Origin: Escherichia coli
GTDB lineage: Bacteria; Pseudomonadota; Gammaproteobacteria; Enterobacterales; Enterobacteriaceae
Reading direction: 5' to 3' (one strand)
Length of the DNA: 64,000 bases
Assembly: GCF_002854065.1 (NCBI RefSeq)
Contig: NZ_CP024152.1
The notes below the pieces were generated by a model, which worked only from the letters and a program-made list of their open reading frames with translations, was not told the origin of the DNA and searched no databases. The position numbers and the translations under genes were made by a program. This document shows, in pieces, positions 27,450-50,192 of this stretch. The first letter of the stretch is position 1; the number at the start of each line of letters is the position of its first letter.

Positions 27450-27537
27450 GTTAGTTGAAAAGAGATTTCCTCCGGTCAGGGCCACCCACTCTGTAACGGA
27501 ACAGTAAAAAAACCGACCTCACCAGTCGGTTTTTTTA
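27450..27537 (+). ncRNA. Candidate antisense sRNA (putative antitoxin) for the 27096-27203 peptide gene
   Basis: Sigma70-like -35 TTGCTA (27415-27420) and -10 TATTAT (27438-27443); intrinsic terminator hairpin plus T7 at 27511-27536. The transcript carries GTTAGTTGAAAAGAGATTTCCTCC, a near-exact copy of 27262-27285, so it would be complementary to the opposite-strand mRNA leader. Confidence 0.3.
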
Positions 27538-27689
27538 CATCTGTTGTTTCTCAAAATCCGCCCAACATGCCCGTCACACCGGGGAAACTCATGCTCTGAA
27601 TCAGAACCAACCATCTCAACTTTGCCGTCTCCTGAAAAAACTGGCACATTCAGTTCGATAACTACCCATAAATACAGAGAGAAAATCCG

Positions 27690-28012: not shown

Positions 28013-28165
28013 TTAACGTTTAACTTCGTAGGCTAACGTTGCCACAAGCACTGTGTTTCCCTGCTGGAGCCGGAGTCCGCAAAGCGAATCCCTCACCATC
28101 CAGACAAAACACAGAATCGTCACACAGATGACGATTAACATCATTAAAAACGTTCGCTGTGGCAT
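28013..28165 (-). CDS. pndA: PndA, Hok-family type I toxin (50 aa)
   Basis: Manual translation: MPQRTFLMMLIVICVTILCFVWMVRDSLCGLRLQQGNTVLVATLAYEVKR, with the Hok-family pattern of a TM helix followed by SLC and AYE. Below the ORF-track size cutoff. Confidence 0.8.
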   Translation of the reverse strand: MPQRTFLMMLIVICVTILCFVWMVRDSLCGLRLQQGNTVLVATLAYEVKR

Positions 28166-28223
28166 CATAGCCCCTCCATTGCCTTACGGCGGTTATCGGG
28201 CTACTATAATGTTGTCTAGGCAT
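28020..28223 (-). CDS. pndC: PndC, Mok-like overlapping reading frame enabling pndA translation
   Basis: Overlapping frame (ORF 28020-28358) with an ATG at 28223; hok/mok/sok architecture. Confidence 0.5.
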   Translation of the reverse strand: MPRQHYSSPITAVRQWRGYDATANVFNDVNRHLCDDSVFCLDGEGFALRTPAPAGKHSACGNVSLRS

Positions 28224-28280
28224 TACAGTAGAGCCCTTGGTTGATTGATAAAAAAATCTCCAGGGGCTTTCTGCTGTATA
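28217..28280 (+). ncRNA. pndB: PndB, Sok-like antisense RNA (approximate)
   Basis: Plus-strand -10 TATAAT at 28205-28210; the transcript would be antisense to the pndC start region; imperfect hairpin plus U-rich tail near 28230-28280. Confidence 0.4.
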
Positions 28281-28437
28281 TGGTTTAGTTAACAAAGAGA
28301 GCCAGTGTTCCACTGAGCAAAACCAGTAGCTATTCATGCTTACAATTATCTTCTCCATATCTGAAATAACTCAAACAGCCCAATAGAAACATATTGTTAC
28401 ATCTAAGATCTTGAAAAGACCTCTTTGAGAAATCAAT

Positions 28438-29641: not shown

Positions 29642-30850
29642 ATGTCTTACAATCGACAGCCTGTCGCAGAAGATCCTATGCAGATATGGGGCGCTGTTGG
29701 TGTCCTTCTTATCCTGCTGCTGTTCGTCATATGGTTATTCTTGCCGGAAGTGGTTTACACCAGCTGCCTGATTCTTCATACCTTATGGGGACTGGTCGAC
29801 TGGGGACCATTTCATAACTATGCAGCACCACGATACAACCTGCTTGCCATGACCGGTAACAACGCCGCCAACATAAGCTATAGCCAGTGGGTTAACGTCA
29901 TGGAACAGACCATAGGTATTCTGTGGATGTACCTCTTACCTGTGACACTCTGGTGTTTGTGGGAATGGTATCAACATCCGGGACAAAGCCGTTTCACCCG
30001 CAGACCAGTAGATATTACCCGACTGCCACACATCTTTGCTTCGTTATCCCCTGCTATCGCCCCTGTACTGGCAGATGGTGATCCGAAAAAACTCTTTCAT
30101 GGTGGTAAACGACCTGAACGGCGGGTTGCTCTCACCCCGGAAGCATTTGTCGAACAGCATACTCTCATCACCAATATGCAGCTCGATGTTGCAGCTGCAA
30201 GACGATGTTTCATGGCCCAGTTGGGTAAACCTTTAACGTCCTGGAAAGACATGGCACCACATGAAAAAGCGCTCTTTGCCATATTTGGCCTTCAGTATTT
30301 CCTGGATGATCGGAAGGCAGCATTAAAGCTCATGGATACACTGAACCTCTCATGCAGAATTAAAAGCAAACGGGACAGCGGGAAATTCTGTACCCCTGTT
30401 TATTCACTGGCCAAATCAGCTTTCCAGAGAGTGATTAAAAGCAACGGAGCACAGCAATGGCTGAAACAACATCGCTACGTCCGCAGTGGGCTGGTCTGGC
30501 TGTATGCACATGACCTGCGGCTTACGCCACCCAACTGGATTTGGCTGAAAGGCGTGGACAGAACGCTGTTTTATGCATTACACCGCGCCAATACCACGAA
30601 AGGATTTATTGAAGGCGCTGGCGTGGTGGCCGTTGCACGTGCAGAGGCCGAAGCCATGCGTTTTGGTCTTCCCTGCCCTGAACCCTGTGTTGATGAAGCG
30701 GTGGAAGGCTTACGGCGGGATATGCTCAGTCTCGGTCTTATCTGGGATGAACCACAACCAGATCGCGACCGGAAACGCCGCATCCTGACCAACTGGTCCC
30801 TCACCGACGACATCCTGCCCCGCACACCTGCTACAGACAACGAATTCTGA
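29642..30850 (+). CDS. trbA: TrbA membrane protein (402 aa)
   Basis: GGAG RBS; N-terminal TM helices; size and position match R64 trbA. Confidence 0.65.
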   Translation: MSYNRQPVAEDPMQIWGAVGVLLILLLFVIWLFLPEVVYTSCLILHTLWGLVDWGPFHNYAAPRYNLLAMTGNNAANISYSQWVNVMEQTIGILWMYLLPVTLWCLWEWYQHPGQSRFTRRPVDITRLPHIFASLSPAIAPVLADGDPKKLFHGGKRPERRVALTPEAFVEQHTLITNMQLDVAAARRCFMAQLGKPLTSWKDMAPHEKALFAIFGLQYFLDDRKAALKLMDTLNLSCRIKSKRDSGKFCTPVYSLAKSAFQRVIKSNGAQQWLKQHRYVRSGLVWLYAHDLRLTPPNWIWLKGVDRTLFYALHRANTTKGFIEGAGVVAVARAEAEAMRFGLPCPEPCVDEAVEGLRRDMLSLGLIWDEPQPDRDRKRRILTNWSLTDDILPRTPATDNEF

Positions 30851-34228: not shown

Positions 34229-34261
34229 GGCCGCGCCGGATTCTGGCGCGGCCTTTTTTTT
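34229..34261 (+). terminator. Rho-independent terminator between convergent trbC and nikB
   Basis: GGCCGCGCC...GGCGCGGCC stem followed by T8. Confidence 0.6.
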
Positions 34262-36959
34262 AACCTGGAGAAGGCGGTTCCCAGCGTTTATCCTGCTCCG
34301 GCGGAGGCAGTGATGCGTCATCGTTGCTGTTCGCCGCGATATAATCGCGGTAGTAGCGTTCACTTCCTTCACGGTGATGATCCACGTCCGGTCGCGTAAT
34401 CCTGTAGTCTTCGTGACCGGTACGGCCTGTCACATTATGCCAGGCAACCATTTCAGCAAAGACCTGGTTAAATTGTTTGTCGTTTCCTTCTGGTTCAAAA
34501 CCCATGCGTGGATCACGCCCGAATAATACCGGTGCAATCAAATCCAGTTTATCTGCCAGCGCATTGCGGTCATGGTGATTACGGAAAACAACCCTGTCAC
34601 CATAATCCGTACAGACAAACTCTCCCGTCCGACGGTCACGGAAACGAACACTCCCGTTCTTCTGCAGACGGGCCTCGAGATCACCGGTATTACCGTATAC
34701 CGGCGTTCCGCCCGGTTCACAAAGCACGACACAGCGGTCTGTCGTCGTTGTGCGTGACCTGTCTTTACGGCGATCGCGATAATCCCAGCCTCTCAACTGC
34801 GATACAGCAGCCCTGTCTCCCTGAGCAGCCTGAATTTCGACCCACTGACGGTAAGAGGGTGGATACCACTTCCCGTCAGCAATAAGTTTCTGTCGCTCAT
34901 CCCTGATGTCTTCTTTCAGCCTGATCAATGCCTGCATTCGCTGAACTTCTGCAATGTGATAATGCAGCTTACGTAATGCCGGATCATCGTACTGCGCACG
35001 AATGTGTGACTTCCGCAGACGGCATGCCTGATGAATTTCCCGACAACGTTCCCCATAACGCAGATCTGGTTTACGCCATTGTTCACGCCATGCCAGATAG
35101 CGGGCACGCAGGTCAGCACGGGCCTCAGCTCTGGCTTCACGTCGCTGCCGGCGCAGCATTGGGTCACGTTTACTGCTGACCCCGTACCTGTCACTGACAG
35201 CCAGCTCCGGGTTATAGCGACTTTCAGGTTGCACCCTGTCAAACAAATCTGCTGGGGCACTCACAAAAGGTCCGGCCTGTGGCTCTGCACGCCCCAGTGT
35301 CAGATCAGGATGAATGCTGCTGGCCTTCACCGGCGTTTGCTCATGATTAAAGGCATCAACGACAACAAGCCCGTGATGTTGTTTCTGTAGCATCAGTCCC
35401 TGTTGTGCAAACAGCTCATGACAACGCTGCCAGGTAAACTCACCCTGTGTGATCATTTCTTCAATCTGAGGGCTACAATGGCTGATGCTGTATCCCCACA
35501 GACTTTCTTTGTCAGAAAACAGTTCGCGTTTGATAGCCCCCTGCGGCCCCGTGCCTGTACGCATACGGTGCCATTCTTTATCGGTCGCAGGACAGCTCTC
35601 CATACGACGACCACGGAAGCGTTCTGTTGGCGTAACCTGGCGGAAAATATCTGTTGGTACAGGCTGCCAGCCACCATCGAGTTGATTCACATTGTCGAGC
35701 GTCAGCAGCGACCATACGCTGTCAGCACGAACGGGAGTCTGGTTATGATCATAACCGTCACAGATAACCAGGTGACCATGCTGAACACGCATCCATAATC
35801 CCGCTTCAGCCAGTGTGCGGTGAATAGCCTGGCAGTTTTCCAGCCGTCCTTCCCGTGCCATTTCCGGCAGACGTTCTCCAAGGTGACGACAGGCATACTG
35901 CTGCAGACTTTCTGTTTCAGCGATTTTTTCCGGGCGAACATCAGCGGCAATGAAGTCCGGATTATAGCGTCCTGGTGCTTCCACCTGGCTGAAAATGTCT
36001 TTTGGTACTGGCGTGTAGTCACCCATTTTTTTCATGAGTTTTTCTGCACACCAGGAGGGACCAAACGAGTCAAGCTGTACACCTTCCCTGTTGCGATCCC
36101 AGCCATCCATCACCAGAAATTTTCCTTCCATCTGAGACAGGTACAGACCATCTTCCGCAAGACGACGATGCAGGGATAACCAGTCATTTACAGGTTCACT
36201 GCGTAAACCAGCGACCGCTGTCTGCGCGACATACTCGCGAAAAGTTTGTTTTTTTCCGCGTGTCCACGCGTTCTGGCGATCACGTTCAACGGCAGTTTTG
36301 CGAACGATACGATTTCCCGGCGCATGGACCCAGCAACCGTTATCCGGAGCAAAACCATGCTTCAGTTCAAGTTCACGGCAGGCACGGCTGAGTTTTTCCT
36401 GACTCCATGAAAGGCAATTCAGATAACCTGTAACCGGATGTACCCGGTTGACCGCAACGTGAACATGCAGGTTATCAGTATCGGTATGTACGGCAGAAAC
36501 ATACTGATGTTCACCCAGCCCGAGGGATTTCAGGGTATGGCGTACACTGTCATAAATCTGTTCCGGACGCGGGCTTTCATGGGCCTGCCAGGAAAGAATG
36601 TAGTGAAAAACAGGATCAGTATTATCTTTCGCATAGTGTGCCTGCTGTGCAATGTACTCCATATCTGCAGCAGCAGTTTCAAGCGATGTACAGTTGTGAA
36701 AACAGGTCACACCGTAAAAGTTAACCCATTCGCAGCCGTCCTTCATGACATCAACCAGCGCCACGAATGACTCATTTCGAAGGCGTGTCGCATAATCAAC
36801 AAGGCGACTGAAACGGCTCCGGTGCGGTTGTTCAGCCTGCGAAGAAGAAGATAAATTCAGTTCCTCATCGGTCATGTCATCCCGGACCGAGACGTAGGAC
36901 ACCAGGTCTTCGAACGAAGACTTGCCGTCCCTTCTCTTTTTCGGAATGACTGCATTCAC
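34260..36959 (-). CDS. nikB: NikB relaxase (899 aa)
   Basis: Relaxase His-triad motif HTDTDNLHVHVAVN; large ORF adjacent to nikA and oriT; GTG start with GAGGA RBS. Confidence 0.85.
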   Translation of the reverse strand: MNAVIPKKRRDGKSSFEDLVSYVSVRDDMTDEELNLSSSSQAEQPHRSRFSRLVDYATRLRNESFVALVDVMKDGCEWVNFYGVTCFHNCTSLETAAADMEYIAQQAHYAKDNTDPVFHYILSWQAHESPRPEQIYDSVRHTLKSLGLGEHQYVSAVHTDTDNLHVHVAVNRVHPVTGYLNCLSWSQEKLSRACRELELKHGFAPDNGCWVHAPGNRIVRKTAVERDRQNAWTRGKKQTFREYVAQTAVAGLRSEPVNDWLSLHRRLAEDGLYLSQMEGKFLVMDGWDRNREGVQLDSFGPSWCAEKLMKKMGDYTPVPKDIFSQVEAPGRYNPDFIAADVRPEKIAETESLQQYACRHLGERLPEMAREGRLENCQAIHRTLAEAGLWMRVQHGHLVICDGYDHNQTPVRADSVWSLLTLDNVNQLDGGWQPVPTDIFRQVTPTERFRGRRMESCPATDKEWHRMRTGTGPQGAIKRELFSDKESLWGYSISHCSPQIEEMITQGEFTWQRCHELFAQQGLMLQKQHHGLVVVDAFNHEQTPVKASSIHPDLTLGRAEPQAGPFVSAPADLFDRVQPESRYNPELAVSDRYGVSSKRDPMLRRQRREARAEARADLRARYLAWREQWRKPDLRYGERCREIHQACRLRKSHIRAQYDDPALRKLHYHIAEVQRMQALIRLKEDIRDERQKLIADGKWYPPSYRQWVEIQAAQGDRAAVSQLRGWDYRDRRKDRSRTTTTDRCVVLCEPGGTPVYGNTGDLEARLQKNGSVRFRDRRTGEFVCTDYGDRVVFRNHHDRNALADKLDLIAPVLFGRDPRMGFEPEGNDKQFNQVFAEMVAWHNVTGRTGHEDYRITRPDVDHHREGSERYYRDYIAANSNDDASLPPPEQDKRWEPPSPG

Positions 36960-36969
36960 CGGAGAATCC

Positions 36970-37302
36970 TCAACCTTCCATTAACTGTTTACGCAATGTA
37001 TTTGTAAGTTCGGTTATGGCAACAAGCACTTCTGCGTATTCCTTGTCACCGGTTCTTTTTCCCTGAACAAACAGATGCTTCTGCATCCTTCCCAGTCTCA
37101 TTAACTCCTTCAGAAAAGCATCATCTGTACGGGAGTTAATTCGCTTATTCAGTGCTGCATTTCGGATGTAAGCAGATACAGTAAGTCCGGAATCTTCAGC
37201 TTTTTTCCTGATGGTTTCATCCTCAACAGGAGAGAATCTGAGTGTCCTGACAACTGTCTTTTGCCGTACCTCACTTTTCTTTCTTACCGCACTATCACTC
37301 AC
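36970..37302 (-). CDS. nikA: NikA, oriT-binding relaxosome accessory protein (110 aa)
   Basis: Small basic ORF immediately upstream of nikB and next to the oriT inverted repeats. Confidence 0.8.
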   Translation of the reverse strand: MSDSAVRKKSEVRQKTVVRTLRFSPVEDETIRKKAEDSGLTVSAYIRNAALNKRINSRTDDAFLKELMRLGRMQKHLFVQGKRTGDKEYAEVLVAITELTNTLRKQLMEG

Positions 37303-37420
37303 TTCAGGCTCCTTACGGGGTGTCGGGGCGAAGCCCTGACCAGATGGTAATTGTAATAGCGTCGCGTGTGACGGTATTACAATTACACATCCTGTCCCGT
37401 TTTTCAGGCCATTATAGCCT
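37303..37420. other. Origin of transfer (oriT) region with inverted repeats
   Basis: Inverted repeat GTCGGGGC...GCCCTGAC (37331-37349) and AATTGTAATA-N16-TATTACAATT (37358-37393), directly upstream of nikA; a nick site is expected at the 3-prime side of the right arm. Confidence 0.6.
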
Positions 37421-37529
37421 GTTATTTTTGTGCATCATAGTCTTATGCAGACGGCAGAAGCAGGGCGCAGCCCTGCCAGGAGTCAGTTTTTGATGATAAA
37501 ATCAGACTTCAACATGAAACGGAGAGAAA

Positions 37530-37871
37530 GTGCCAATGGCTTCTAAAAAATTTTACTCAGATGATGACATCCAGCTGGCAAAAGCTGCCTTATCGGAATT
37601 GCCGGACCTCACCGCTCAACGGAAAACATTGCGTGATTTTCTTGATGCCATTCGTGATGACATCATTGTCCTGGTAAGGACAAAGGGTTATACACTGGCA
37701 GATGTTCGTGACACGCTTAAAAATGCAGGGTATGAAGTAGGAGAGAAGGCACTTCGTGACATTATTCGGGAAGCAGAATCGAAAAAACCATCCCGCCGTT
37801 CTTCCTCTAAAACAGCACCTAAAAAGACAGATTCAGGCAGGAAAGATGGCATCGATATGAACAACAATTGA
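37530..37871 (+). CDS. Hypothetical protein with basic C-terminal tail (113 aa), first gene right of oriT
   Basis: ORF with a perfect palindrome GATGTGACAATGTCACATC immediately after the stop; no recognisable catalytic motif. Confidence 0.45.
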   Translation: MPMASKKFYSDDDIQLAKAALSELPDLTAQRKTLRDFLDAIRDDIIVLVRTKGYTLADVRDTLKNAGYEVGEKALRDIIREAESKKPSRRSSSKTAPKKTDSGRKDGIDMNNN

Positions 37872-37956: not shown

Positions 37957-38808
37957 TCAGACTCGTGGCGGCAATGCACCAGGATAATGCCGTGCAATAA
38001 TATCATTCAGTTTTTCAACAAGGTCAGGACGCTTAAAGACAATGTGTACGGTCCCTTTCTGGTAGCCACGCACCGTAAAATATTCCCCTTCTAACAGCTT
38101 ACCGACGTTGTCGCCGTTCCCGAGAAATTCACCATACTGCGCCCCGATGCTGCTCCGGAAGTCAGGAACGTTGCGCCCCTCCAGCAGATAAAAAGGACGT
38201 ACCAGGTCATCCAGTGCCTCCCGTCCGCTGCAGTCCAGCGTCACACGCCCGTTACTCCAGCGGTACAGCATGTTTTCAATAATGATTCTCTTGCCCAGAC
38301 GGCAGGGATTATTGGTTCTGTAATCCCATGACAATTTCCGGTAGACATCAATCAGTCCCTGTTCAAACGTCTGCATCTTGCTGGTATTAAGATGGCGGAA
38401 TGTTGCCAGTACATTGTCCAGGGTGATTTCAGGACAGGTGTCGCTCATCAGCTGGCTGTTCCACTCATCACGCTGGCATGAACTCATGAAGGTGTACATG
38501 CCCGTATCTGTCATCAGGCGGTCCCAGATTTTCCGGTCGGCAAGACGGGTGATATTCCTTTTCGCTTCTTCCGGCTTATCCATGCGACGAACGGAATCAG
38601 TCACGCAGTCTTCAAACCCGTAAAGAAAAATATCACCTGACGCATCGAGCAGAATCCTGCGCGCTGTCGCCAGGCATTCCATCGCCTGCATGAATAGTGC
38701 AATACCTTCGTTACGCTGCGCGATGATGCGGTCGATAGCCACAGACGGAATAACATCTGTCGTGCCGGCAGTATTCAGGTCAGCAGTGGGTAAAGTCTGA
38801 TTCATCAC
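37957..38808 (-). CDS. Hypothetical leading-region protein (283 aa)
   Basis: Minus-strand ORF directly downstream (in transcription sense) of structured repeat copy 1; function not recognisable from sequence. Confidence 0.5.
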   Translation of the reverse strand: MMNQTLPTADLNTAGTTDVIPSVAIDRIIAQRNEGIALFMQAMECLATARRILLDASGDIFLYGFEDCVTDSVRRMDKPEEAKRNITRLADRKIWDRLMTDTGMYTFMSSCQRDEWNSQLMSDTCPEITLDNVLATFRHLNTSKMQTFEQGLIDVYRKLSWDYRTNNPCRLGKRIIIENMLYRWSNGRVTLDCSGREALDDLVRPFYLLEGRNVPDFRSSIGAQYGEFLGNGDNVGKLLEGEYFTVRGYQKGTVHIVFKRPDLVEKLNDIIARHYPGALPPRV

Positions 38809-38853
38809 ATTGTCTCCTCATCGTCACGACTGCCGGGTCAGCCAGGTCATTTC

Positions 38854-39180
38854 CCGGAGGAGCGAAGCTCCTTCTGCCGTCCGGGTCTTAGGGTATTTCC
38901 CCGCAGTGGACCTTTCCGACGGGGGACGCTCACCACGTCACGGGGCAGTTGTCCGGGGGCAGACGCAAAAGTTTTTGACGCCAGCGGCAAAAAGTTTTGT
39001 GGCTGGTACATCTCTCCCCTGGACGACTGAAACGGGATGTGGTCGTGTATGTACCCCCGGAAAGTCCGTCTGCGGAGAACAGGCCGCAGTGCGGCGGCAG
39101 ACAGGCAAGAGACAGCTGCGCCATCAGGCGCAGTGGCCTTACACACCGTAAGGTGTGCAGGGAGCGCCGCATCCGGCGCG
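38854..39180. promoter_or_regulatory. Structured repeat family 1, copy 1 (ssi/Frpo-like single-strand promoter candidate)
   Basis: About 330 bp, highly similar to 41711-42207 and 48054-48551; contains internal palindromes (GCGCCATCAGGCGC, ACACACCGT-AGGTGTG). Confidence 0.55.
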
Positions 39181-39281
39181 TCTGAAGAAAAACGACGGCA
39201 CAACAATGGCATGTGGTGGTCACTGGCACACCACTCCCGCACAGGTGAAAACAGAGAAAACCGCACGACATTTACAAACAA

Positions 39282-39378
39282 AAAAAGTGAAATTTCTTCA
39301 CTTTTTTACACTTATTTATCGCGCTGATTTGGCAATTGTGATGATAAAATAAAGTGAAGTTTTTTCACTTTTTCAAAG
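39282..39378. promoter_or_regulatory. Two palindromic operator-like sites flanking the putative promoter of the HTH gene
   Basis: AAAAAGTGAA-ATTTC-TTCACTTTTT (39282-39307) and AAAGTGAA-GTTTTT-TCACTTT (about 39350-39375), sharing the half-site AGTGAA. Confidence 0.45.
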
Positions 39379-41660: not shown

Positions 41661-41710
41661 GAAAACGTCTCCTTCTGCTGAATCAGGTCGCCGGGCCGAC
41701 CGGTTGCTCC

Positions 41711-42207
41711 CCGGAGGGGCGAAAGCCCCTTCTGCCGTCCACTTCTTCGGGGTTTCTCCCCGCAGTGGACCTTTCCGATGGGGCGTCCGTCACCACGTCA
41801 CGGGGCAGCTGTCCGGGGGCGGACGCAAAATTTTTTGCCGGGTTTATGGCTAAAAATTTTGTGGACGGTATATCTTCCCCTGGACTGCTGAAACGGGATG
41901 TGGTTACTCCAGCCCCCGGAAAGTCCACAGCGGGAAACAGGCCGCAGGGGTGGCGGCGGAAGGGTTGACTGCGCCATCAGGCGCAGTGGCCTTACACACC
42001 GTCAGGTGTGCAGGGAGCGCCGTTTCCGGCGCGACAGGGGCGGCGCGACCGGAACGGTCGCTGCAAGCCTGGTTTTTCAGACATCGGACCGTAGCGGCAG
42101 CCCGAAACCGCGCCAGCGGGTTCGGCGGAGACTGGCGGGTGCGCCAGCAGCTGCCTGTCGGAGTCGGGCCTGACGACCGGATGCCGCCAGGCAGCCGGGA
42201 GCCGAAG
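41711..42207. promoter_or_regulatory. Structured repeat family 1, copy 2 (ssi/Frpo-like)
   Basis: About 500 bp, near-identical over most of its length to 48054-48551 and over about 330 bp to 38854-39180. Confidence 0.6.
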
Positions 42208-42388
42208 GTGTCCCCGCCTCCGGAAATCAGAACAACAGAAACGACATAACAGAAAAATGCCTCACACCATGACGGGCAGGAAGGGCAGCGCCGCAGGCGC
42301 GGCCCTCCTGCATTTCAGGCAGGCGTAAGCCTGCCAGGGTTTTCCGGCGGCCTGGCAGGCCATACCCCCGCCGGAGCGGGGGAGTAAA

Positions 42389-42889
42389 TCACCGACGGAA
42401 CACATGACCGTCAATAAAGGTGAAGGAGTCCAGGAATAAATCCCGCGCATACGCCTCATAGTCAAAATAGAGCGCCACCGTCTCCGGCACGTCAGCCAGC
42501 AGGCCGGTATCACTGGCGAACTCAACCGCAAAAGCCTCCTCACTGTCAGCCTCGCCCCACCAGGCATCGCGGAAGGTGTCAAAATCCGTCTCACCGGTAT
42601 CCTCCACCCAGAGACGATAAGCCTCTTCGCAGCCTTCATCCCGTGCCTGGCGGAAGCCTTCAACCCAGGCCCAGTTGATATGGCATTCAGAGGCCATATT
42701 CCCCGGGAATCCCTCATAATCCTGAAACATCAGTTCAGGATCGGCTTCATCCTGGTGAAGAGCACGGCAGGCGGCGAAAAAGTCGCGCTCATCATCAAAC
42801 GTGGTCAGGTCAAACCAGCGTCCGGCGATGCTTCCACAGTTGTATTTGTGCCAGGTTCCAACGTATACAGCAGGTGCAACAACAGACAT
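42389..42889 (-). CDS. ardA: Antirestriction protein ArdA (166 aa)
   Basis: Starts [27 protein letters not shown] and has the acidic DNA-mimic composition; GGAGGA RBS. The ORF-track 301-aa reading is an upstream extension through the repeat. Confidence 0.85.
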
Positions 42890-42921
42890 TCCCGAATCCT
42901 CCATAGTCACATGTTCTGCGG

Positions 42922-43248
42922 CACCGGGCGGTGCCGTGCCTCCATAAAAGCCGGGCGATAAGGCGGGGATGCATAGGGCGCAAGGGAAGCCGCAGCCTGA
43001 CGCACACGGCTGGCGGGAGTTGGAGGGTGAGACCGCGAAATCTGAGCGGGTGAACGACCGGAAAATCACGGCAGACGGGAAGGAGGGACCGGGTGACCGC
43101 AGCGGCGAAGCGTACCCTTGCATCCCTGCCAGCCCGGCTAAGATGGAGGCACGGCACAGCCCGCACACGACGCTGAGGCCACAGAGCTGAAAACCCACAA
43201 GGCCATGCCCCGCATGGCCGGGTAAAAGCGGAGCCGCCGGCGACTTCC
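42922..43248. promoter_or_regulatory. Structured repeat family 2, copy A (ssDNA promoter candidate upstream of ardA)
   Basis: Perfect 15-bp inverted repeat GTGCCGTGCCTCCAT (42931-42945) / ATGGAGGCACGGCAC (43143-43157) about 200 bp apart, plus further paired arms; second copy at 49870-50192. Confidence 0.55.
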
Positions 43249-43351: not shown

Positions 43352-43948
43352 TCACCGGAGAATATCTGTGATATCCACAAGTTTTCTGTCGCACAGCCAG
43401 TCCTGCGCTTCACGCACCACGCTACTGTCGGGTTTCACCGCTTTCAGCGATGATGCCAGTCGCTTGATCAACATAACCAGTTCCCGTGTCTGTATGTCCG
43501 GCATTGTCTCCGGCGGAGCAGAGGGACTCTCATTTCCGACGCCCATCCCATGCGCTTCCAGTGTGGCACGGACAAACCAGGCGGCATCGACCAGTTGCTG
43601 GCGAATCCAGGTCAGATCGGCATTTCTGTCACGGGCTGCCATTCGCTCACCCGACAGCGCCTTGCTGATATGGCTGCGCACCAGATTATCCAGGAGTTCC
43701 TGCGCTTCTTCCGGTGAAAAGCCACCTGGTATCTCTGTGCGCAACAGTCCTTTCCTGTACAGTAGCTGCAGCAGATCAATCTGCGACCGCACTGCAACTA
43801 TCAGTACATAACGGACAATATTCGCACTGGCGGTGGTTTCTGTATCATTCAGCAGTTCCTCCGGATCATTACCACCGGTATTGCAGAGCAACGGCAACAG
43901 AGGTCGCATCCACACGGGAACCTGATATTGTTCGTCTGATTTCATCAT
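43352..43948 (-). CDS. Hypothetical protein (198 aa), coupled to psiA
   Basis: ATGA overlap with the psiA stop at 43945-43948. Confidence 0.45.
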   Translation of the reverse strand: MMKSDEQYQVPVWMRPLLPLLCNTGGNDPEELLNDTETTASANIVRYVLIVAVRSQIDLLQLLYRKGLLRTEIPGGFSPEEAQELLDNLVRSHISKALSGERMAARDRNADLTWIRQQLVDAAWFVRATLEAHGMGVGNESPSAPPETMPDIQTRELVMLIKRLASSLKAVKPDSSVVREAQDWLCDRKLVDITDILR

Positions 43949-44664
43949 ATTGCGTTCTCCAGCTTGTTCGGGATCATCCACTGCTCAAGTGCACGTACCT
44001 GTACCGGTGCACCACGACCGGCCTCACCGGCTTCAAAAATCAGCCGCCAGAGTGGTTCCTCCTGCCAGAAAAACCGGTCAAATGATGACAGTGATGGAAA
44101 ACGCCCGCACCACCCCCAGAAAATCGTTTCCAGATCATGCTCCTCAACAACACCAGACCAGCGGGACAACCAGCTTCCGACCGTGGCGGGAGTATGAAAC
44201 GCAAGGTCAATCTGCGCCTGAGCAAAACATGTCTGGTATTCCAGTTCCCGTCGTTCTGCCTCACGTTCCCGCTGGCGGCTGTATTTCTGCTCTGTCAGCG
44301 TGGTTTTCTGACGACGACGCTCACCTTCACGAAAAGGCACGGACGGGAACAGACGGTGCCCCGCATCGGATGGCAGGGGAAGAACACAGACTTCCCCAAA
44401 ACTTTCAATCAGTTTATCCACGGCAGCCAGCCACAGGAGACGGTTGCCATGAAATTCCTCCTTCGTCAGCGCAGGGGCAAAAAAGCGGAGATCGGTCAGC
44501 GAAATCCGGCGACTGCCATTCAGGCAGCGAAAGAAAGCGGTGGCATAAGGCCATGCTGGAAGTGTGCGTCCCTGACGACGACGTTGTTCTGTGACAGCCA
44601 CCGCCTGCATGGCGGCCTGTTGTTCTGCGCTGAGGGGGATCAGTGCCCGTGAACGTGCGCTCAT
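43945..44664 (-). CDS. psiA: PsiA (239 aa)
   Basis: 239-aa ORF immediately downstream of psiB, overlapping its stop; recognised PsiA sequence. Confidence 0.8.
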
Positions 44665-45098
44665 GCCTGACCTCCTTCTGCCATCAGGATATGGATGATG
44701 TCGTTAACACTGTATCCCTGCGCATCAAGTGTCGCGGCAAGCGCCAGCGTGTGACTGATCGCGACAGGCGTGAAGATATGTTGCACCTGAACGACGGCGA
44801 AAGGCTGTCCACCACCATTCACCAGAACCAGCATCCAGAGCTGAGAGACGTCTCCCGGCGAACATAATGCCAGGTGGAAACGTTCGTGGGCTGGCGTGAA
44901 ACGAACCTGGACGGGGAAAAAGCCCCCGAACTCGCTGCCATACTCTCCGTTCATCATCCAGTTAGCCGGTGCGTCCACTTCACGCATCACCTCGTGAGTG
45001 AGATTACGGCGCATATCGCTTCCCGCAGCACGGATTTCTTCATATTCCTGGGCATTCATGGACTGCAGGGCATTCAGTGTCAGTTCGGTATTCATCAT
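44661..45098 (-). CDS. psiB: PsiB, plasmid SOS inhibition protein (145 aa)
   Basis: Sequence [25 protein letters not shown]...[12 protein letters not shown] is recognisable as PsiB. Confidence 0.85.
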
Positions 45099-45149: not shown

Positions 45150-47114
45150 TCAGGCGGCATCAGCCAGGTTATCGGCGCGTTCAGTGGCATCCGTCTGTGG
45201 ACGTGGTGAACACATCCAGCCAGGCACCCAGCGGTTGTCTTTCATATGGAACTCTGCATGTTCAGCGGCATCGCCTTTCTTCATCTTCTCTGCGTCCCGT
45301 GCGGCACCGGACAGTCCGGCATCATTCAGGGCTGCGATAATCTGCGGCTTTTTCAGGTGTCCGAAGAAGTTTGCTTTCGTCGGCTGCCACCAGTCGCGCA
45401 TGTGAAAACCGATGGCGCTCTCCAGTGAGTCAAGCGGACTGCGTGACGTGCGACCACACTCGCGGGTCTGGACACCGTTAAGGCTGCATGCGGTGCAGAA
45501 ACTGAGCAGGGATAACAGCACCTCCTGACTGAGTGACAGGAACGTCGTCATGTCCCGTGACCATCCCTCCGGTAACAGGGCCGCAAGACGGGCTTTTTCT
45601 GCCATCAGCGCCAGGAATGCGGCACCTTCCTTCCCTGACGGCGCATCGCTGGTCAGCGAATAATGTTTACATTCCAGGCTGATTTGTGCTGGTTTACTGT
45701 ACGCTCCGCTGTCAAACACATTCAGGCAGAGCGTCCATGCCAACAGTGCCAGAGATTTGTCCGGTTGCTGCATCAGTGCTGCCTGGACTGCCAGCGTGCG
45801 TTCGGAAGACATTTTCGTCAGCAGTGGCAGACTGATTTCCTCCACTGACGCTTTTTCCTGCACCTGTTCCGTGCGGTCAGCGTCGTCAGCCGCATCATCC
45901 TCACTGCGTAACTGCACACCACGCTGGACACATACGTTTCCATAACGCCAGGACACCACCACTCCACCTTCGGCACGCATCTCCGGCGTCCACGCTCTGA
46001 CCTTCGCCATGCAGCGCATCAGCTTCATTTCTGCTTCCAGCAGGTCAGATTCCTCACACTGGTTTTCCAGCGCGTCGTAACGTGCCATCAGTTCGTTCAG
46101 ACGTTCTTCTTCCGCCTCGGTCAGCACCGCTTCCGGCTCCGGCAGACAGCGGTATGTTCCGGCATCCTCACGGCACTCACCGACAGGCTCCATGCGTCCG
46201 GCGCACCATTCCCAGCCTTCGGCTTCCCGAAGGAACTCTGCGACAGCCTGGAGTTTTTCCAGCAGGGCGGCATCGAGCGCCACGCAGTCCACATAGCCAC
46301 CCTCGTCGTCGCTGAACAAATCGGTGCGCAGTTCGTCTGGCGAGAAGGCATCAGCCCCCACGAAGCGGAATTTACTGTTCCCCGCCACCGCCACTTCACT
46401 TTCCGTAATCAGATTGCGGATAACCCGCACATCCGGTTTACCGCCCCATCCCGACTGACAGGCAGCTTCAAACACCTGCACCTGACGCGCGGTGTCGTTC
46501 TCCAGCGCCAGCGCCTGACAGTGTTCGGTGGTGATGCGGTCTTCTGCCAGCGCATCGAGGATGACAGGCGCAAGGTCAGCCAGTTTCAGCATTCGCTGAA
46601 CGTGGCGGGGTGAATAGCCCAGCAAATCACCGATTTGTGCAGGTGTTTTGCCTTCCTGCGCCATTGCGCGGAATCCGGCAATCTGTTCAGCAGGGTGCAT
46701 ATCCCGACGATGACCGTTTTCAGTCATTGATGCCGCCGTCGCCAGCTCCTGCGGAATGACCTTCACACGGACAGGCCAGTCAGCCGGAATGATGCCACGC
46801 TCTGCCAGCATGTTGAGTGCAGCCAGTCGGCGACCACCTGCGGCGACACCGTAACGGTCACCAGGCAGGGTATGCACGACCAGATTCTGCAACAGGCCAA
46901 CGCCCTTAATGGACTCCGCCAGTTCGCTGACGGACTCCGCAGAATACGGCACCGTGCGCACATTCAGCGGTGATTTAATCAGCGAGGCCAGCGGCACGCT
47001 CACTTCCTCCGTCTGCGCCAGCAGGGCAGACAGGACAGTTTCCTGCGTTTTTGCAGATTTACGGCTTGCTTTGCGGGTGGTTTCTGGTTCACACTTCGTT
47101 ACAGGCATAATCAT
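45150..47114 (-). CDS. ParB-like nuclease-domain protein (654 aa)
   Basis: N-terminal ParB/Srx-type motifs (GLLQNLVVH, AGGRRLAAL); no adjacent ParA partner. Confidence 0.65.
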   Translation of the reverse strand: MIMPVTKCEPETTRKASRKSAKTQETVLSALLAQTEEVSVPLASLIKSPLNVRTVPYSAESVSELAESIKGVGLLQNLVVHTLPGDRYGVAAGGRRLAALNMLAERGIIPADWPVRVKVIPQELATAASMTENGHRRDMHPAEQIAGFRAMAQEGKTPAQIGDLLGYSPRHVQRMLKLADLAPVILDALAEDRITTEHCQALALENDTARQVQVFEAACQSGWGGKPDVRVIRNLITESEVAVAGNSKFRFVGADAFSPDELRTDLFSDDEGGYVDCVALDAALLEKLQAVAEFLREAEGWEWCAGRMEPVGECREDAGTYRCLPEPEAVLTEAEEERLNELMARYDALENQCEESDLLEAEMKLMRCMAKVRAWTPEMRAEGGVVVSWRYGNVCVQRGVQLRSEDDAADDADRTEQVQEKASVEEISLPLLTKMSSERTLAVQAALMQQPDKSLALLAWTLCLNVFDSGAYSKPAQISLECKHYSLTSDAPSGKEGAAFLALMAEKARLAALLPEGWSRDMTTFLSLSQEVLLSLLSFCTACSLNGVQTRECGRTSRSPLDSLESAIGFHMRDWWQPTKANFFGHLKKPQIIAALNDAGLSGAARDAEKMKKGDAAEHAEFHMKDNRWVPGWMCSPRPQTDATERADNLADAA

Positions 47115-47457: not shown

Positions 47458-47985
47458 TCAGAACGGGATGTCGTCTGAAAACCCGTAATCCTCCCCCTCC
47501 GGCGGTTGCGGCTGAGGCTCTGGCTGCGCGGCCTTACGTCCACGGCCTTTCGTTTTCGCGCCACCTTTTTTCGTCGCGTCAGCACTCTGTGGCTGCCCAT
47601 TCTGCTGAGGCTTCGGTTGCGCCTGAGCGTTCTGCTGTGGTGCACGTCCCAGCATCTGCACGGTGCCCGTGGTCTTAACAAGAATTTCAGTGACGTAACG
47701 GGTGATACCGTTATCTTCCCAGCTACGGGTGCGAAGCTGACCTTCGATGTAGACCTGCGCACCCTTGCGCAGATATTCACCTGCCACTTCCGCGAGCTTG
47801 CCGAACAGCACCACGCGGTGCCATTCCGTCTGCTCCCGCATCTCCCCCGTCTGTTTGTCACGCCAGCTTTCTGATGTGGCCACCTGCAGGTTTGCCACTG
47901 CGCCCCCGTTGGGGATGTAACGGACTTCCGGATCATTGCCCAGACGCCCGACGAGGATGACCTTGTTGATACCACGTGCACTCAT
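47458..47985 (-). CDS. ssb: Plasmid single-stranded DNA-binding protein (175 aa)
   Basis: OB-fold N-terminus ([15 protein letters not shown]), Gly/Pro/Gln-rich linker and acidic C-terminal tail DDIPF. Confidence 0.9.
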
Positions 47986-48053
47986 AAGAACCTCCTGACT
48001 GAAAGATGTGAGATAAACCGGATACCGGCGACGGGACGTTCATGTGCCCCTTC

Positions 48054-48551
48054 AGAGGAGCGAAAGCTCCTCCTGCCGTCCACTTCACAGGGGTTTCTCC
48101 CCGCAGTGGACCTTTCCGATGGGGGCCCGTTTACCGCCTCACGGGACAGCTGTCCGGGGGCGGACGCAAAATTTTTAGCCGGGTTCATGGCTAAAAATTT
48201 TGTGGCCGGTGCATCTCACCCTGGACAGATGGAACGGGAGGGGGTTACGTCTGCCCCCCGGAAAGTCCACAGCGGGAAACAGGCCGCAGGGGTGGCGGCA
48301 GGAGGGAGGACTGCTGCGCCATCAGGCGCAGTTTCCTCACACACCGTCAGGTGTGCAGGGAGCGCAGGTCACGGCGCGACAGGGGCGGCGCGACCGGAAC
48401 GGTCGCTGCAAGCCGGGTTTTCACGCATCGGACCGTAGCGGCAGCCCGAAACCGCGCCAGCGGGTTCGGCGGAGACTGGCGGGTGCGCCAGCAGCTGCCT
48501 GTCGGAGTCGGGCCTGACGACCGGATGCCGCCAGGCAGCCGGGAGCCGAAG
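48054..48551. promoter_or_regulatory. Structured repeat family 1, copy 3 (ssi/Frpo-like), upstream of ssb
   Basis: About 500-bp near-duplicate of 41711-42207, positioned immediately upstream (minus sense) of ssb. Confidence 0.6.
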
Positions 48552-49410: not shown

Positions 49411-49836
49411 TCAGTCCAGAGCCGCGTAAATCGCGTTGCATTCGGGGTGAAATTCGATGTGACGCCACAACTGCGCATCGCGCATCCGGTAAAGCTGGGT
49501 CAGTCCTGCATCCCCGCTGTCGTGGTACAGCCACAACTGGCGGTTAATCACAAGGGAGGTCAGGATGATGCCTGCGGCATCAGCACTCACGGTACGGTCA
49601 AACCAGTTTGCACCGTTCACCATGTGGAAACGGTCGCCATCCGGCATCATGTAACCGCCACCGTCCGGCAGGCGGATGAAGTGCCAGAAGCCTCCCTGAT
49701 ATTCCGGCATCATTTTTTGCGCCAGCGCGTACACATACGCCTCGGCATACAGAAAATCGTTGCCAAACAGATACGGCAGAAAGGAGAGACGGTCGCACTC
49801 TTCAACATTCAGAGTGACAGGTTTCGCATATTGCAT
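49411..49836 (-). CDS. KlcA/ArdB-family antirestriction-like protein (141 aa)
   Basis: Family-typical motifs EYQGGFWHF and [10 protein letters not shown]; located directly downstream of a structured repeat, like ardA. Confidence 0.65.
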
Positions 49837-49869
49837 GATGTTTTCCTCCGTTGTTCACATATTCCGCGA

Positions 49870-50192
49870 CACCGGGCGGTGCCGTGCCTCCATAAAAGCC
49901 GGGCGAACAGGCGGGGATGCAGGGGCGCAAGGGAAGCCGCAGCCTGACGCACACGGCTGACGGGAGTTGCAGGGTGAGACCGCGAAATCTGAGCGGGTGA
50001 ACGACCGGAAAATCACGGCAGACGGGAAGGAGGGACCGGGTGACCGCCGCGTTCATTTTACCCTTGCATCCCCGCCAGCCCGGCTAAGATGGAGGCACGG
50101 CACAGCCCGCACACGACACGGCGGCCACATAACTGAAAACCCACAAGGCCATGCCCCGCATGGCCGGGTAAAGCGGAGCCGGCGGCGACTTC
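49870..50192. promoter_or_regulatory. Structured repeat family 2, copy B (ssDNA promoter candidate)
   Basis: Near-duplicate of 42922-43248 including the 15-bp inverted repeat arms. Confidence 0.55.

What the first reader, a model, noticed from the sequence alone, without database searches (positions are those of the whole stretch)
37303..37420. oriT inverted-repeat architecture
Two inverted repeats (GTCGGGGC/GCCCTGAC and AATTGTAATA-N16-TATTACAATT) lie directly upstream of nikA, matching the organisation I recall for R64-type oriT, with the nick expected just right of the second repeat. This fixes transfer polarity: the region to the right enters recipients first.
Basis: partly seen in the sequence, partly recalled or inferred. 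Interest (0 to 1): 0.3.

Follow-up and report, generated by a model that had tools for sequence, protein, structure and literature searches.

The report
R64-type plasmid transfer origin (oriT)

Summary
Both inverted repeats are present at the stated coordinates, directly upstream of nikA (36970-37302, minus strand).

Over 37290-37540 the window is 98% identical to the oriT of plasmid R64. NikA is 100% and NikB 99% identical to the R64 proteins.

- **Long repeat:** it has 17-nt arms (37347-37363 / 37370-37386, 16 of 17 complementary, 6-nt spacer), not 10-nt arms with N16.
- **Short repeat:** it is 7 of 8 complementary, with a G·T pair (37322-37329 / 37333-37340).
- **Nick site:** by homology it lies 8 nt right of the long repeat, in CATCCTG|TCCCG, between G37394 and T37395 on the plus strand.

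The polarity call holds. The nicked strand reads rightwards. ArdA, PsiA, PsiB, SSB and an ArdB-type gene lie to the right, all coded on the minus strand, so the incoming plus strand is their template.

Across 20 diverse related oriTs, 9 of 17 pairs of the long repeat show compensatory changes. The short repeat and the nick region are invariant in sequence.

The only differences from R64 inside the repeats are one compensatory pair, C:G to T:A at 37348/37385.

Verdict: already known, correctly read, low interest.

The parts
34260..36959 (-). nikB, MOBP relaxase (899 aa)
   Evidence: 99% identical to R64 NikB. Pfam Relaxase and TraI_middle domains. NCBIfam TraI_MobP_relax 414 bits against a cut-off of 250.
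36970..37302 (-). nikA, ribbon-helix-helix relaxosome accessory protein (110 aa, GTG start)
   Evidence: 100% identical to R64 NikA. Pfam NikA-like, E = 2e-22. Matches PDB 2BA3 'NikA' over residues 2-52.
37306..37311 (-). AAGGAG Shine-Dalgarno sequence of nikA, 3 nt before the GTG start
   Evidence: Read directly from the minus-strand sequence.
37316..37400 (+). Conserved portable oriT module: short repeat, long repeat and nick region
   Evidence: This is the extent of homology shared with nikA-less small plasmids of 1.5-6.8 kb.
37322..37340 (+). Short inverted repeat GTCGGGGC-GAA-GCCCTGAC (7 of 8 plus a G·T pair)
   Evidence: Sequence-invariant, including the G·T pair, in 19-20 of 20 related oriTs, with no covariation.
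37347..37363 (+). Nick-distal arm of the 17-nt inverted repeat
   Evidence: Co-varies with the proximal arm. T37348 is C in R64.
37370..37386 (+). Nick-proximal arm of the 17-nt inverted repeat (NikA-binding 'repeat A' in R64)
   Evidence: A37385 is G in R64, compensating T37348. Binding of NikA to one arm is taken from the title of Furuya & Komano 1995 as cited in PMC5789077. That the inner arm is used for initiation is from PMC5863519.
37387..37399 (+). Nick region ACATCCTG|TCCCG, with the inferred nick between G37394 and T37395
   Evidence: Identical to R64. R64 nick from PMC5789077 Table S1. CACATC[C/T]TGTCC is invariant in 20 oriTs. This is the only exact match in the window.
37405..37421 (.). 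5-bp inverted repeat CAGGC-N7-GCCTG enclosing a minus-strand TATAAT (37416 to 37411); tentative -10 box of the nikAB promoter
   Evidence: Conserved in the large I-complex plasmids but not in the small oriT-only plasmids. No good -35 box was found, so the promoter assignment is inference only.
37536..37871 (+). Divergent yggA-like ORF (111 aa), with a promoter-like site at 37473-37502
   Evidence: R64 YggA is reported as a homologue of pCTX-M3 Orf35, a repressor of nikAB and tra (PMC6112013).
37957..49836 (-). Leading region: DUF4942 gene (37957-38808), ardA (42389-42889), psiA (43945-44664), psiB (44661-45098), parB-like gene (45150-47114), ssb (47458-47985) and an ArdB-type antirestriction gene (49411-49836)
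   Evidence: Pfam hits. Same order as in R64 and in NZ_CP019215.2. All are on the minus strand.

Best explanation
Window 37316-37400 is the origin of conjugative transfer (oriT) of an IncI1/R64-type (I-complex, MOBP) plasmid.

Initiation (by homology with R64): NikA binds the nick-proximal arm of the 17-nt repeat (37370-37386) on double-stranded DNA. This positions the relaxase NikB on the adjacent nick region. NikB cuts the plus strand between G37394 and T37395 and stays attached to the 5' end at T37395.

Transfer: the plus strand is then transferred 5' to 3'. DNA to the right (yggA, then the ardA-psiAB-ssb leading region) enters first. The repeats, nikA, nikB and the trb/tra genes enter last.

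Termination: when the trailing end arrives as single-stranded DNA, the two repeats, which lie 5' of the nick on the transferred strand, can fold into hairpins. The complete repeat set is needed for the termination and rejoining reaction.

The same region is also the 5' leader and promoter region of the nikAB operon.

What was shown here: sequence identity with R64, the anatomy, covariation of the long repeat, and the position and orientation of the leading-region genes. What is inferred by homology: binding, nicking and termination.
For: - **Identity with R64:** 98% identity to R64 oriT, with an identical nick region. NikA is 100% and NikB 99% identical.
- **R64 architecture and nick site from the literature:** PMC3817090 and PMC5789077 Table S1.
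- **Roles of the arms:** inner arm for initiation, whole repeat for termination (PMC5863519, citing Furuya & Komano 2000).
- **Covariation in 20 oriTs (IncI1, I-gamma, K2/Z, B/O, L/M and small plasmids):** 9 of 17 pairs of the long repeat carry double-sided changes, in 44 cells. 0 of 500 shuffles reach the observed covariation score, cells paired or cells with a double-sided change; 19 of 500 reach the number of pairs with a double-sided change. Slid controls give 3-5 pairs. 91.5% of cells are paired against 31-47% when slid.
- **ssDNA fold:** z = -7.9.
- **Rarity:** the 17-nt repeat is unique in the 64 kb and absent from shuffles.
- **Independence from nikA:** small plasmids without nikA keep exactly this module, so it works as a portable cis-acting site and not only as a nikA operator.
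- **Leading region:** its genes lie to the right, all on the minus strand, matching the published leading-region pattern (PMC11541004).
- **Context:** an IncI type IVB transfer region lies to the left, with TraO, TraY, ExcA, TrbA and TrbC.
- **Distribution:** 2442 plasmid records match the 361-bp region and 4690 match the 111-bp core.
Against: - Nothing in the sequence argues against it.
- No experiment was done on this particular sequence.
- The primary Furuya & Komano papers could not be read. The 8-nt distance, the G|T nick and the roles in termination therefore rest on secondary sources and my recollection of the abstracts.
- The nick-proximal arm differs from R64 at one base (A37385 instead of G) although NikA is identical. 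The effect on binding is untested. The T:A form is very common, with about 554 records at 99% identity or more, which argues that it is functional.
- Covariation of an inverted repeat could also arise from a symmetric double-stranded protein site rather than a hairpin.
Confidence: 0.95

Rival explanations
1. The repeats are mainly a double-stranded operator or leader for autoregulation of the nikAB operon by the ribbon-helix-helix protein NikA, or by the divergent YggA-like protein, rather than transfer signals.
For: - They sit between a possible -10 box (minus-strand TATAAT, 37416 to 37411) and the nikA Shine-Dalgarno sequence.
- NikA is an RHH protein, weakly related to the regulator and oriT-binding protein TraJ.
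- In IncL/M pCTX-M3, the YggA homologue Orf35 represses nikAB (PMC6112013).
Against: - The same 85-bp module is kept on 1.5-6.8 kb plasmids that have no nikA next to it.
- R64 oriT function is experimentally established (PMC3817090 and PMC5863519).
- A regulatory role is compatible with oriT function and does not replace it.
Confidence: 0.04
2. Polarity is the reverse: the minus strand is nicked, and nikAB and the tra genes enter the recipient first.
For: The table that lists the R64 nick gives it in GenBank orientation (CGGGA/CAGGA), which on its own does not say which strand is cut.
Against: - The same table also lists RP4 (CCGGG/CAGGA) and R388 on the complementary strand. From my own knowledge, their nicks are ATCCTG|C and GTCT|ATAGC, so the table is not strand-specific.
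- The MOBP motif ATCCTG|Y reads on the plus strand here.
- The repeats lie 5' of the nick, as needed for a termination role.
- ardA, psiB and ssb lie to the right, with the plus strand as template.
- The relaxase gene is typically in the lagging region (PMC11541004).
Confidence: 0.01
3. The repeats are chance palindromes or a transcription terminator unrelated to transfer.
For: 8-nt repeats with one mismatch are common by chance.
Against: - The 17-nt repeat is unique in the window and absent from shuffles.
- It is near-identical to R64.
- It covaries across 20 origins.
- No T-run follows either hairpin on either strand.
Confidence: 0

Closest known systems
oriT of IncI1 plasmid R64 (NC_005014, 66816-67047), studied by Furuya & Komano
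   Same: Same position upstream of nikAB. Same 8-nt and 17-nt imperfect repeats, same 6-nt spacer, same nick region and same 8-nt distance. Identical NikA and 99% identical NikB. Same leading-region gene order.
   Different: Within the 111-bp core there are three base differences: C to T at 37348 and G to A at 37385, which together are one compensatory stem pair, and G to A at 37406, outside the module. A large class of records (98.2% identity, for example NZ_CP029975.1) carries the R64-type C:G pair.
oriTs of other I-complex plasmids (IncI-gamma, IncK2/Z, IncB/O; for example pSH-04-1, pTMSA970, p3521-type)
   Same: Identical short repeat and nick region, and a long repeat in the same register.
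   Different: The arms of the long repeat differ in sequence and co-vary (for example GGGGAATGTCTGAG / CCGACATTCCCC). They go with divergent NikA proteins (WP_001291056, WP_001291058, WP_001281051).
oriT of IncL/M plasmids (pCTX-M3, pOXA-48 family; pJEG011 here)
   Same: 74% identity over the core and the same three-part layout. CACATCTTGTCCCG at the nick region. Low-frequency cross-mobilisation with ColIb-P9 is reported (PMC6112013).
   Different: Different arm sequence in the long repeat, C to T in the nick motif, and nikAB fused to the tra operon rather than tail-to-tail with trb.
oriT of IncP plasmid RP4/RK2 (TraJ and TraI)
   Same: Nick motif ATCCTG|Y. An inverted repeat 5' of the nick whose proximal arm binds a small accessory protein. 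NikA weakly matches the TraJ model. RP4 nick CCGGG/CAGGA is in the same table.
   Different: No detectable DNA similarity outside the nick motif. A 19-bp rather than 17-nt repeat (my own knowledge). Different relaxase subfamily.
oriT-only small mobilisable plasmids (pBuzz-type rolling-circle and ColE-like plasmids)
   Same: They carry the same 85-bp module at 78-97% identity. pBuzz is mobilised by a B/O plasmid without its own relaxase (Moran & Hall 2019, as cited in PMC9282650).
   Different: No nikAB and no leading region. Here the module is on its native conjugative backbone.

Membership tests
R64/IncI1-type (I-complex, MOBP) oriT | Nick-region sequence CATCCTG|TCCCG (MOBP motif YATCCTG|Y) | tested here: met
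   37388-37399 is identical to R64. R64 nick from PMC5789077 Table S1. Invariant in 20 related oriTs.
R64/IncI1-type (I-complex, MOBP) oriT | 17-nt imperfect inverted repeat whose nick-proximal arm ends 8 nt 5' of the nick | tested here: met
   Arms 37347-37363 and 37370-37386, 16 of 17 complementary. 37387-37394 is the 8 nt before the nick. The R64 architecture is described in PMC3817090.
R64/IncI1-type (I-complex, MOBP) oriT | 8-nt imperfect inverted repeat further 5' of the long repeat | tested here: met
   37322-37329 and 37333-37340, identical to R64.
R64/IncI1-type (I-complex, MOBP) oriT | Located immediately upstream of a nikA-nikB operon encoding the cognate RHH accessory protein and MOBP relaxase | tested here: met
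   nikA starts at 37302. NikA is 100% and NikB 99% identical to R64. Family hits.
R64/IncI1-type (I-complex, MOBP) oriT | Leading region (ardA, psiAB, ssb) on the 3' side of the nick, coded so that the transferred strand is the template | tested here: met
   All these genes are on the minus strand, to the right of 37395.
R64/IncI1-type (I-complex, MOBP) oriT | Complementarity of the long repeat maintained by selection (a hairpin or symmetric site) | tested here: met
   9 of 17 pairs show compensatory change, against 3-5 in slid controls; 0 of 500 shuffles reach the observed covariation score, and 19 of 500 reach the number of such pairs.
R64/IncI1-type (I-complex, MOBP) oriT | NikA binding, NikB-dependent site- and strand-specific nicking, and mobilisation in cis | not testable with these tools
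   These need EMSA or footprinting, nick mapping and mating assays.

The most novel reading that the evidence does not exclude
The most novel reading concerns the two repeats, not the origin itself.

**Long repeat:** NikA is reported to bind only its nick-proximal arm. The distal arm nevertheless tracks the proximal arm through many compensatory changes. These include the two common IncI1 alleles, C:G in R64 and T:A here, with the T..G intermediate seen in 5 of the 21 related sequences compared (four small plasmids and pTB44P4). This would be natural-variation evidence that the single-stranded hairpin form, not only a double-stranded protein site, is under selection. That fits the termination step.

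**Short repeat:** it is fixed in sequence, including its G·T mismatch. It may therefore be read as a specific sequence, or as a specific folded mini-hairpin (GCGAAGC-type loop), by NikB or another factor, rather than being merely any stem.
Probability: 0.35. Interest if true: 0.25.

Novelty: already known. Interest (0 to 1): 0.08.

Why it matters
It fixes the annotation of this window. The oriT core is at 37316-37400, the inferred nick is at 37394|37395 on the plus strand, and transfer proceeds rightwards. The ardA-psiAB-ssb block is therefore the leading region, and nikAB, trb and tra enter last.

This helps in reading the early-expressed anti-defence genes and the Frpo-like single-strand promoters nearby. 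It also helps in predicting which small co-resident plasmids this relaxosome could mobilise.

It adds nothing new to conjugation biology.

Tried and rejected
- **Primary papers:** I tried to read the R64 papers (PMC179678, PMC94506, PMC161590 and PMC208999). None is held, so I used secondary sources.
- **Literature search:** a search for 'R64' + 'ATCCTG' + 'nic' with match 'anywhere' returned only irrelevant papers.
- **Third helix:** the ssDNA minimum-energy fold adds an outer helix, 37315-37320 with 37395-37400, that would enclose the nick. I rejected it. In the 20-sequence alignment its columns are invariant or change without compensation: p203740_80 has C to A at the column of 37397, and s6835 and s4715 change both sides to a C-T mismatch.
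- **nikAB promoter:** the promoter scan found no minus-strand site at its threshold. A perfect TATAAT (37416 to 37411) without a good -35 box is only a tentative candidate.
- **Rfam:** no family matches at the oriT.
- **YggA-like ORF:** it has no credible Pfam or NCBIfam hit.
- **Second oriT in the window:** only two 2-mismatch matches to the nick motif exist, at 30809 and 50390. That is within chance expectation, and neither has the repeats.

Full report
**Observation.**
- The short repeat is GTCGGGGC (37322-37329), GAA, GCCCTGAC (37333-37340). It is 7 of 8 Watson-Crick, with G37325 opposite T37337.
That repeat has 17-nt arms, 37347-37363 and 37370-37386, is 16 of 17 complementary, and has a 6-nt spacer.
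- A repeat of this size with at most one mismatch occurs once in the 64-kb window and never in 20 dinucleotide-preserving shuffles. Only one other hairpin-type repeat with arms of 15 nt or more exists in the window, at 48161-48208.
- The short repeat would not be remarkable alone. 8-nt arms with one mismatch occur 343 times in the window and about 158 times in shuffles.
- Folded as single-stranded DNA, the plus strand of 37315-37400 gives -28.5 kcal/mol (z = -7.9), with both hairpins predicted.

**Surroundings.**
- Directly to the left on the minus strand lie nikA (36970-37302) and nikB (34260-36959). nikA has a GTG start with AAGGAG 3 nt upstream. It hits Pfam NikA-like and matches PDB 2BA3. 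nikB hits Pfam Relaxase and NCBIfam TraI_MobP_relax.
- Further left are TrbC, TrbB, TrbA, ExcA, TraY and TraO of an IncI type IVB transfer system.
- To the right lies a divergent yggA-like ORF (37536-37871).
- Beyond it lies a run of minus-strand genes: a DUF4942 gene, an Rpn/YhgA-like gene, ardA (42389-42889), psiA, psiB, a parB-like gene, ssb (47458-47985) and an ArdB-type antirestriction gene (49411-49836).

**Comparison with R64.**
- R64 is held as NC_005014, and its nikA-upstream intergenic region is at 66816-67047.
- The window aligns to it at 98% identity over 37290-37540.
- NikA is 110/110 identical and NikB 891/899 identical.
- Within the repeats and the nick region there are exactly two differences, T37348 (C in R64) and A37385 (G in R64). 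These are the two partners of the second pair of the 17-nt stem, so C:G has become T:A.
- A large class of records carries the R64-type C:G pair and differs from the window only at that pair.
- In the spread sample, rows at 100% identity and at 98.2% identity are both frequent. No row sits at the single-mismatch level. A T..G intermediate does exist on an IncX1 plasmid that captured nikA-oriT and on some small plasmids.

**What the literature available here says.**
- R64 oriT lies immediately upstream of nikA and is recognised by 17-bp and 8-bp imperfect inverted repeats (PMC3817090).
- NikA binds one arm of the 17-bp repeat (title of Furuya & Komano 1995, cited in PMC5789077).
- Initiation needs the arm nearest the nick, and the whole repeat is needed for termination (PMC5863519, citing Furuya & Komano 2000).
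- The R64 nick is tabulated as CGGGA/CAGGA, the complement of TCCTG/TCCCG. RP4 is listed the same way as CCGGG/CAGGA (PMC5789077 Table S1).
- In the window TCCTGTCCCG is 37390-37399. The inferred nick is therefore between G37394 and T37395 on the plus strand, 8 nt beyond the end of the proximal arm.
- My recollection of the primary abstracts agrees: a G|T nick 8 bp from the 17-bp repeat, a 44-bp core for initiation and a longer sequence for termination. I could not read those papers.

**Independent test by comparison.**
- I collected 20 related origins: IncI1, I-gamma, K2/Z, B/O and L/M plasmids, and ten small plasmids of 1.5-6.8 kb. I aligned them.
- The region CGGGGTGTCGGGG...CCCTGACCA and the nick region CACATC[C/T]TGTCC are essentially invariant. 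The arms of the long repeat differ widely but stay complementary.
- For the long repeat, 9 of 17 pairs have changes on both sides, in 44 cells. No shuffle of 500 reaches the observed covariation score or the observed share of paired cells; 19 of 500 reach the number of pairs with a change on both sides. Sliding the 3' partners by 1-3 columns gives only 3-5 such pairs and 31-47% of cells paired, against 91.5%.
- The short repeat shows no covariation at all, and its G·T pair is kept in 19 of 19 sequences. It is conserved as a sequence, so the alignment is uninformative about whether its stem forms.
- The small plasmids have no nikA next to the module. Their homology begins near 37316 and ends near 37400. 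This delimits a portable cis-acting unit and argues against the repeats being only a nikA operator.

**Polarity.**
- The nick motif reads on the plus strand, and the relaxase stays on the 5' end, so T37395 leads and DNA to the right enters first.
- The repeats lie 5' of the nick and therefore arrive last. That is where a termination signal has to be.
- The genes to the right are the classical leading-region genes. All are coded on the minus strand, so the incoming plus strand is their template.
- This matches the published finding that anti-defence, SSB and related leading genes are placed for transcription from the transferred strand, by way of Frpo-type single-strand promoters (PMC11541004).
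- Three copies of a repeat of about 500 nt lie at about 38,810-39,300, 41,700-42,210 and 48,050-48,550. Each is immediately upstream, on the minus strand, of a leading gene.
- The copy next to ssb folds as a long imperfect hairpin with z = -9.6.
- Frpo-containing repeats in this position are described for IncI plasmids (PMC3817090).

**Mechanism.**
- Shown here: identity with the R64 site and proteins, the anatomy, selection on complementarity of the long repeat, invariance of the nick region and short repeat, and the position and orientation of the leading region.
- Inferred by homology: NikA binds the proximal arm on duplex DNA. NikB cuts at 37394|37395 and pilots the plus strand rightwards. 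The hairpin-forming repeats at the trailing end support recognition and rejoining at termination.
- The region is also the leader of nikAB. A minus-strand TATAAT (37416 to 37411) inside a small repeat (37405-37421) is a tentative -10 box, but no good -35 box was found.

**Verdict.**
Three details needed refining: arm length and spacer, the mismatch in the short repeat, and the exact nick position. The element is an already known, very common sequence, with 2442 plasmid records matching the 361-bp region and 4690 matching the 111-bp core. The only mildly interesting points are the compensatory allele relative to R64 and the clean natural covariation of the long repeat.

Noticed in passing
window 38810-39300, 41700-42210 and 48050-48550: Three copies of a GC-rich repeat of about 500 nt (69-98% identical in blocks). 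Each lies just upstream, on the minus strand, of a leading-region gene: the DUF4942 gene, a 144-aa ORF and ssb. The ssb copy folds as a long imperfect ssDNA hairpin (z = -9.6). They look like the Frpo/ssi single-strand promoters described for IncI leading regions.
   Followed up: partly
window 37536-37871 (+): The divergent 111-aa ORF next to oriT is named 'molybdopterin-guanine dinucleotide biosynthesis protein MobC' in many RefSeq records. That looks like a naming error. It has no credible Pfam or NCBIfam hit. R64 YggA is reported as a homologue of pCTX-M3 Orf35, whose deletion raises nikA and nikB transcripts 23-40 fold (PMC6112013), so it may repress nikAB.
   Followed up: partly
loci L012-L021 (small plasmids of 1.5-6.8 kb, for example CP056793.1, NZ_CP069837.1 and NZ_CP103549.1): Many tiny Col-type or rolling-circle plasmids carry only the 85-bp oriT module, with no nikAB. 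Each has the long-repeat arms of a particular I-complex or L/M lineage: pJD8 matches the K2/Z-B/O type and the 1748-bp plasmid matches IncL/M. Some are typed 'non-mobilizable' by MOB-suite, and 206 such records appear among the hits. They are probably relaxase-in-trans hitchhikers like pBuzz.
   Followed up: partly
window 34260-36959 (nikB), residues 105-182: Seven of the eight amino-acid differences from R64 NikB cluster in residues 105-182 of the relaxase domain: R105Q, D113N, S126A, A149G, D150E, E176V and R182C. The rest of the 899-aa protein has one change. This could be a recombination patch or co-variation with the oriT allele. I did not examine it.
   Followed up: no
window 42907-43226 and 49855-50172: About 320 nt upstream of ardA is repeated at 93-98% identity upstream of the ArdB-type antirestriction gene. 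This suggests a shared regulatory region for the two antirestriction genes.
   Followed up: no
window 28163-28380 (-) and 27451-27538 (+): Rfam matches to the sok antitoxin RNA (74.9 bits) and to the AgrB antisense RNA (55.3 bits). These correspond to the pnd (hok/sok-type) and DinQ-like type I toxin loci annotated between trbA and excA in R64.
   Followed up: no
window 37405-37421: A small inverted repeat CAGGC-CATTATA-GCCTG followed by a T-run on the plus strand (flagged as terminator-like). It lies 10 nt 3' of the inferred nick and encloses a minus-strand TATAAT. It is conserved in the large I-complex plasmids but absent from the oriT-only small plasmids. Its function is unclear: possibly the nikAB promoter, or an early structure on the leading end.
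   Followed up: partly
window 37326-37332: The tip of the short repeat reads GCGAAGC. From my own knowledge, this is the sequence of an unusually stable DNA mini-hairpin. The loop is not strictly conserved among relatives (GAA, TAA, AAA and GCA), so its significance is uncertain.
   Followed up: no
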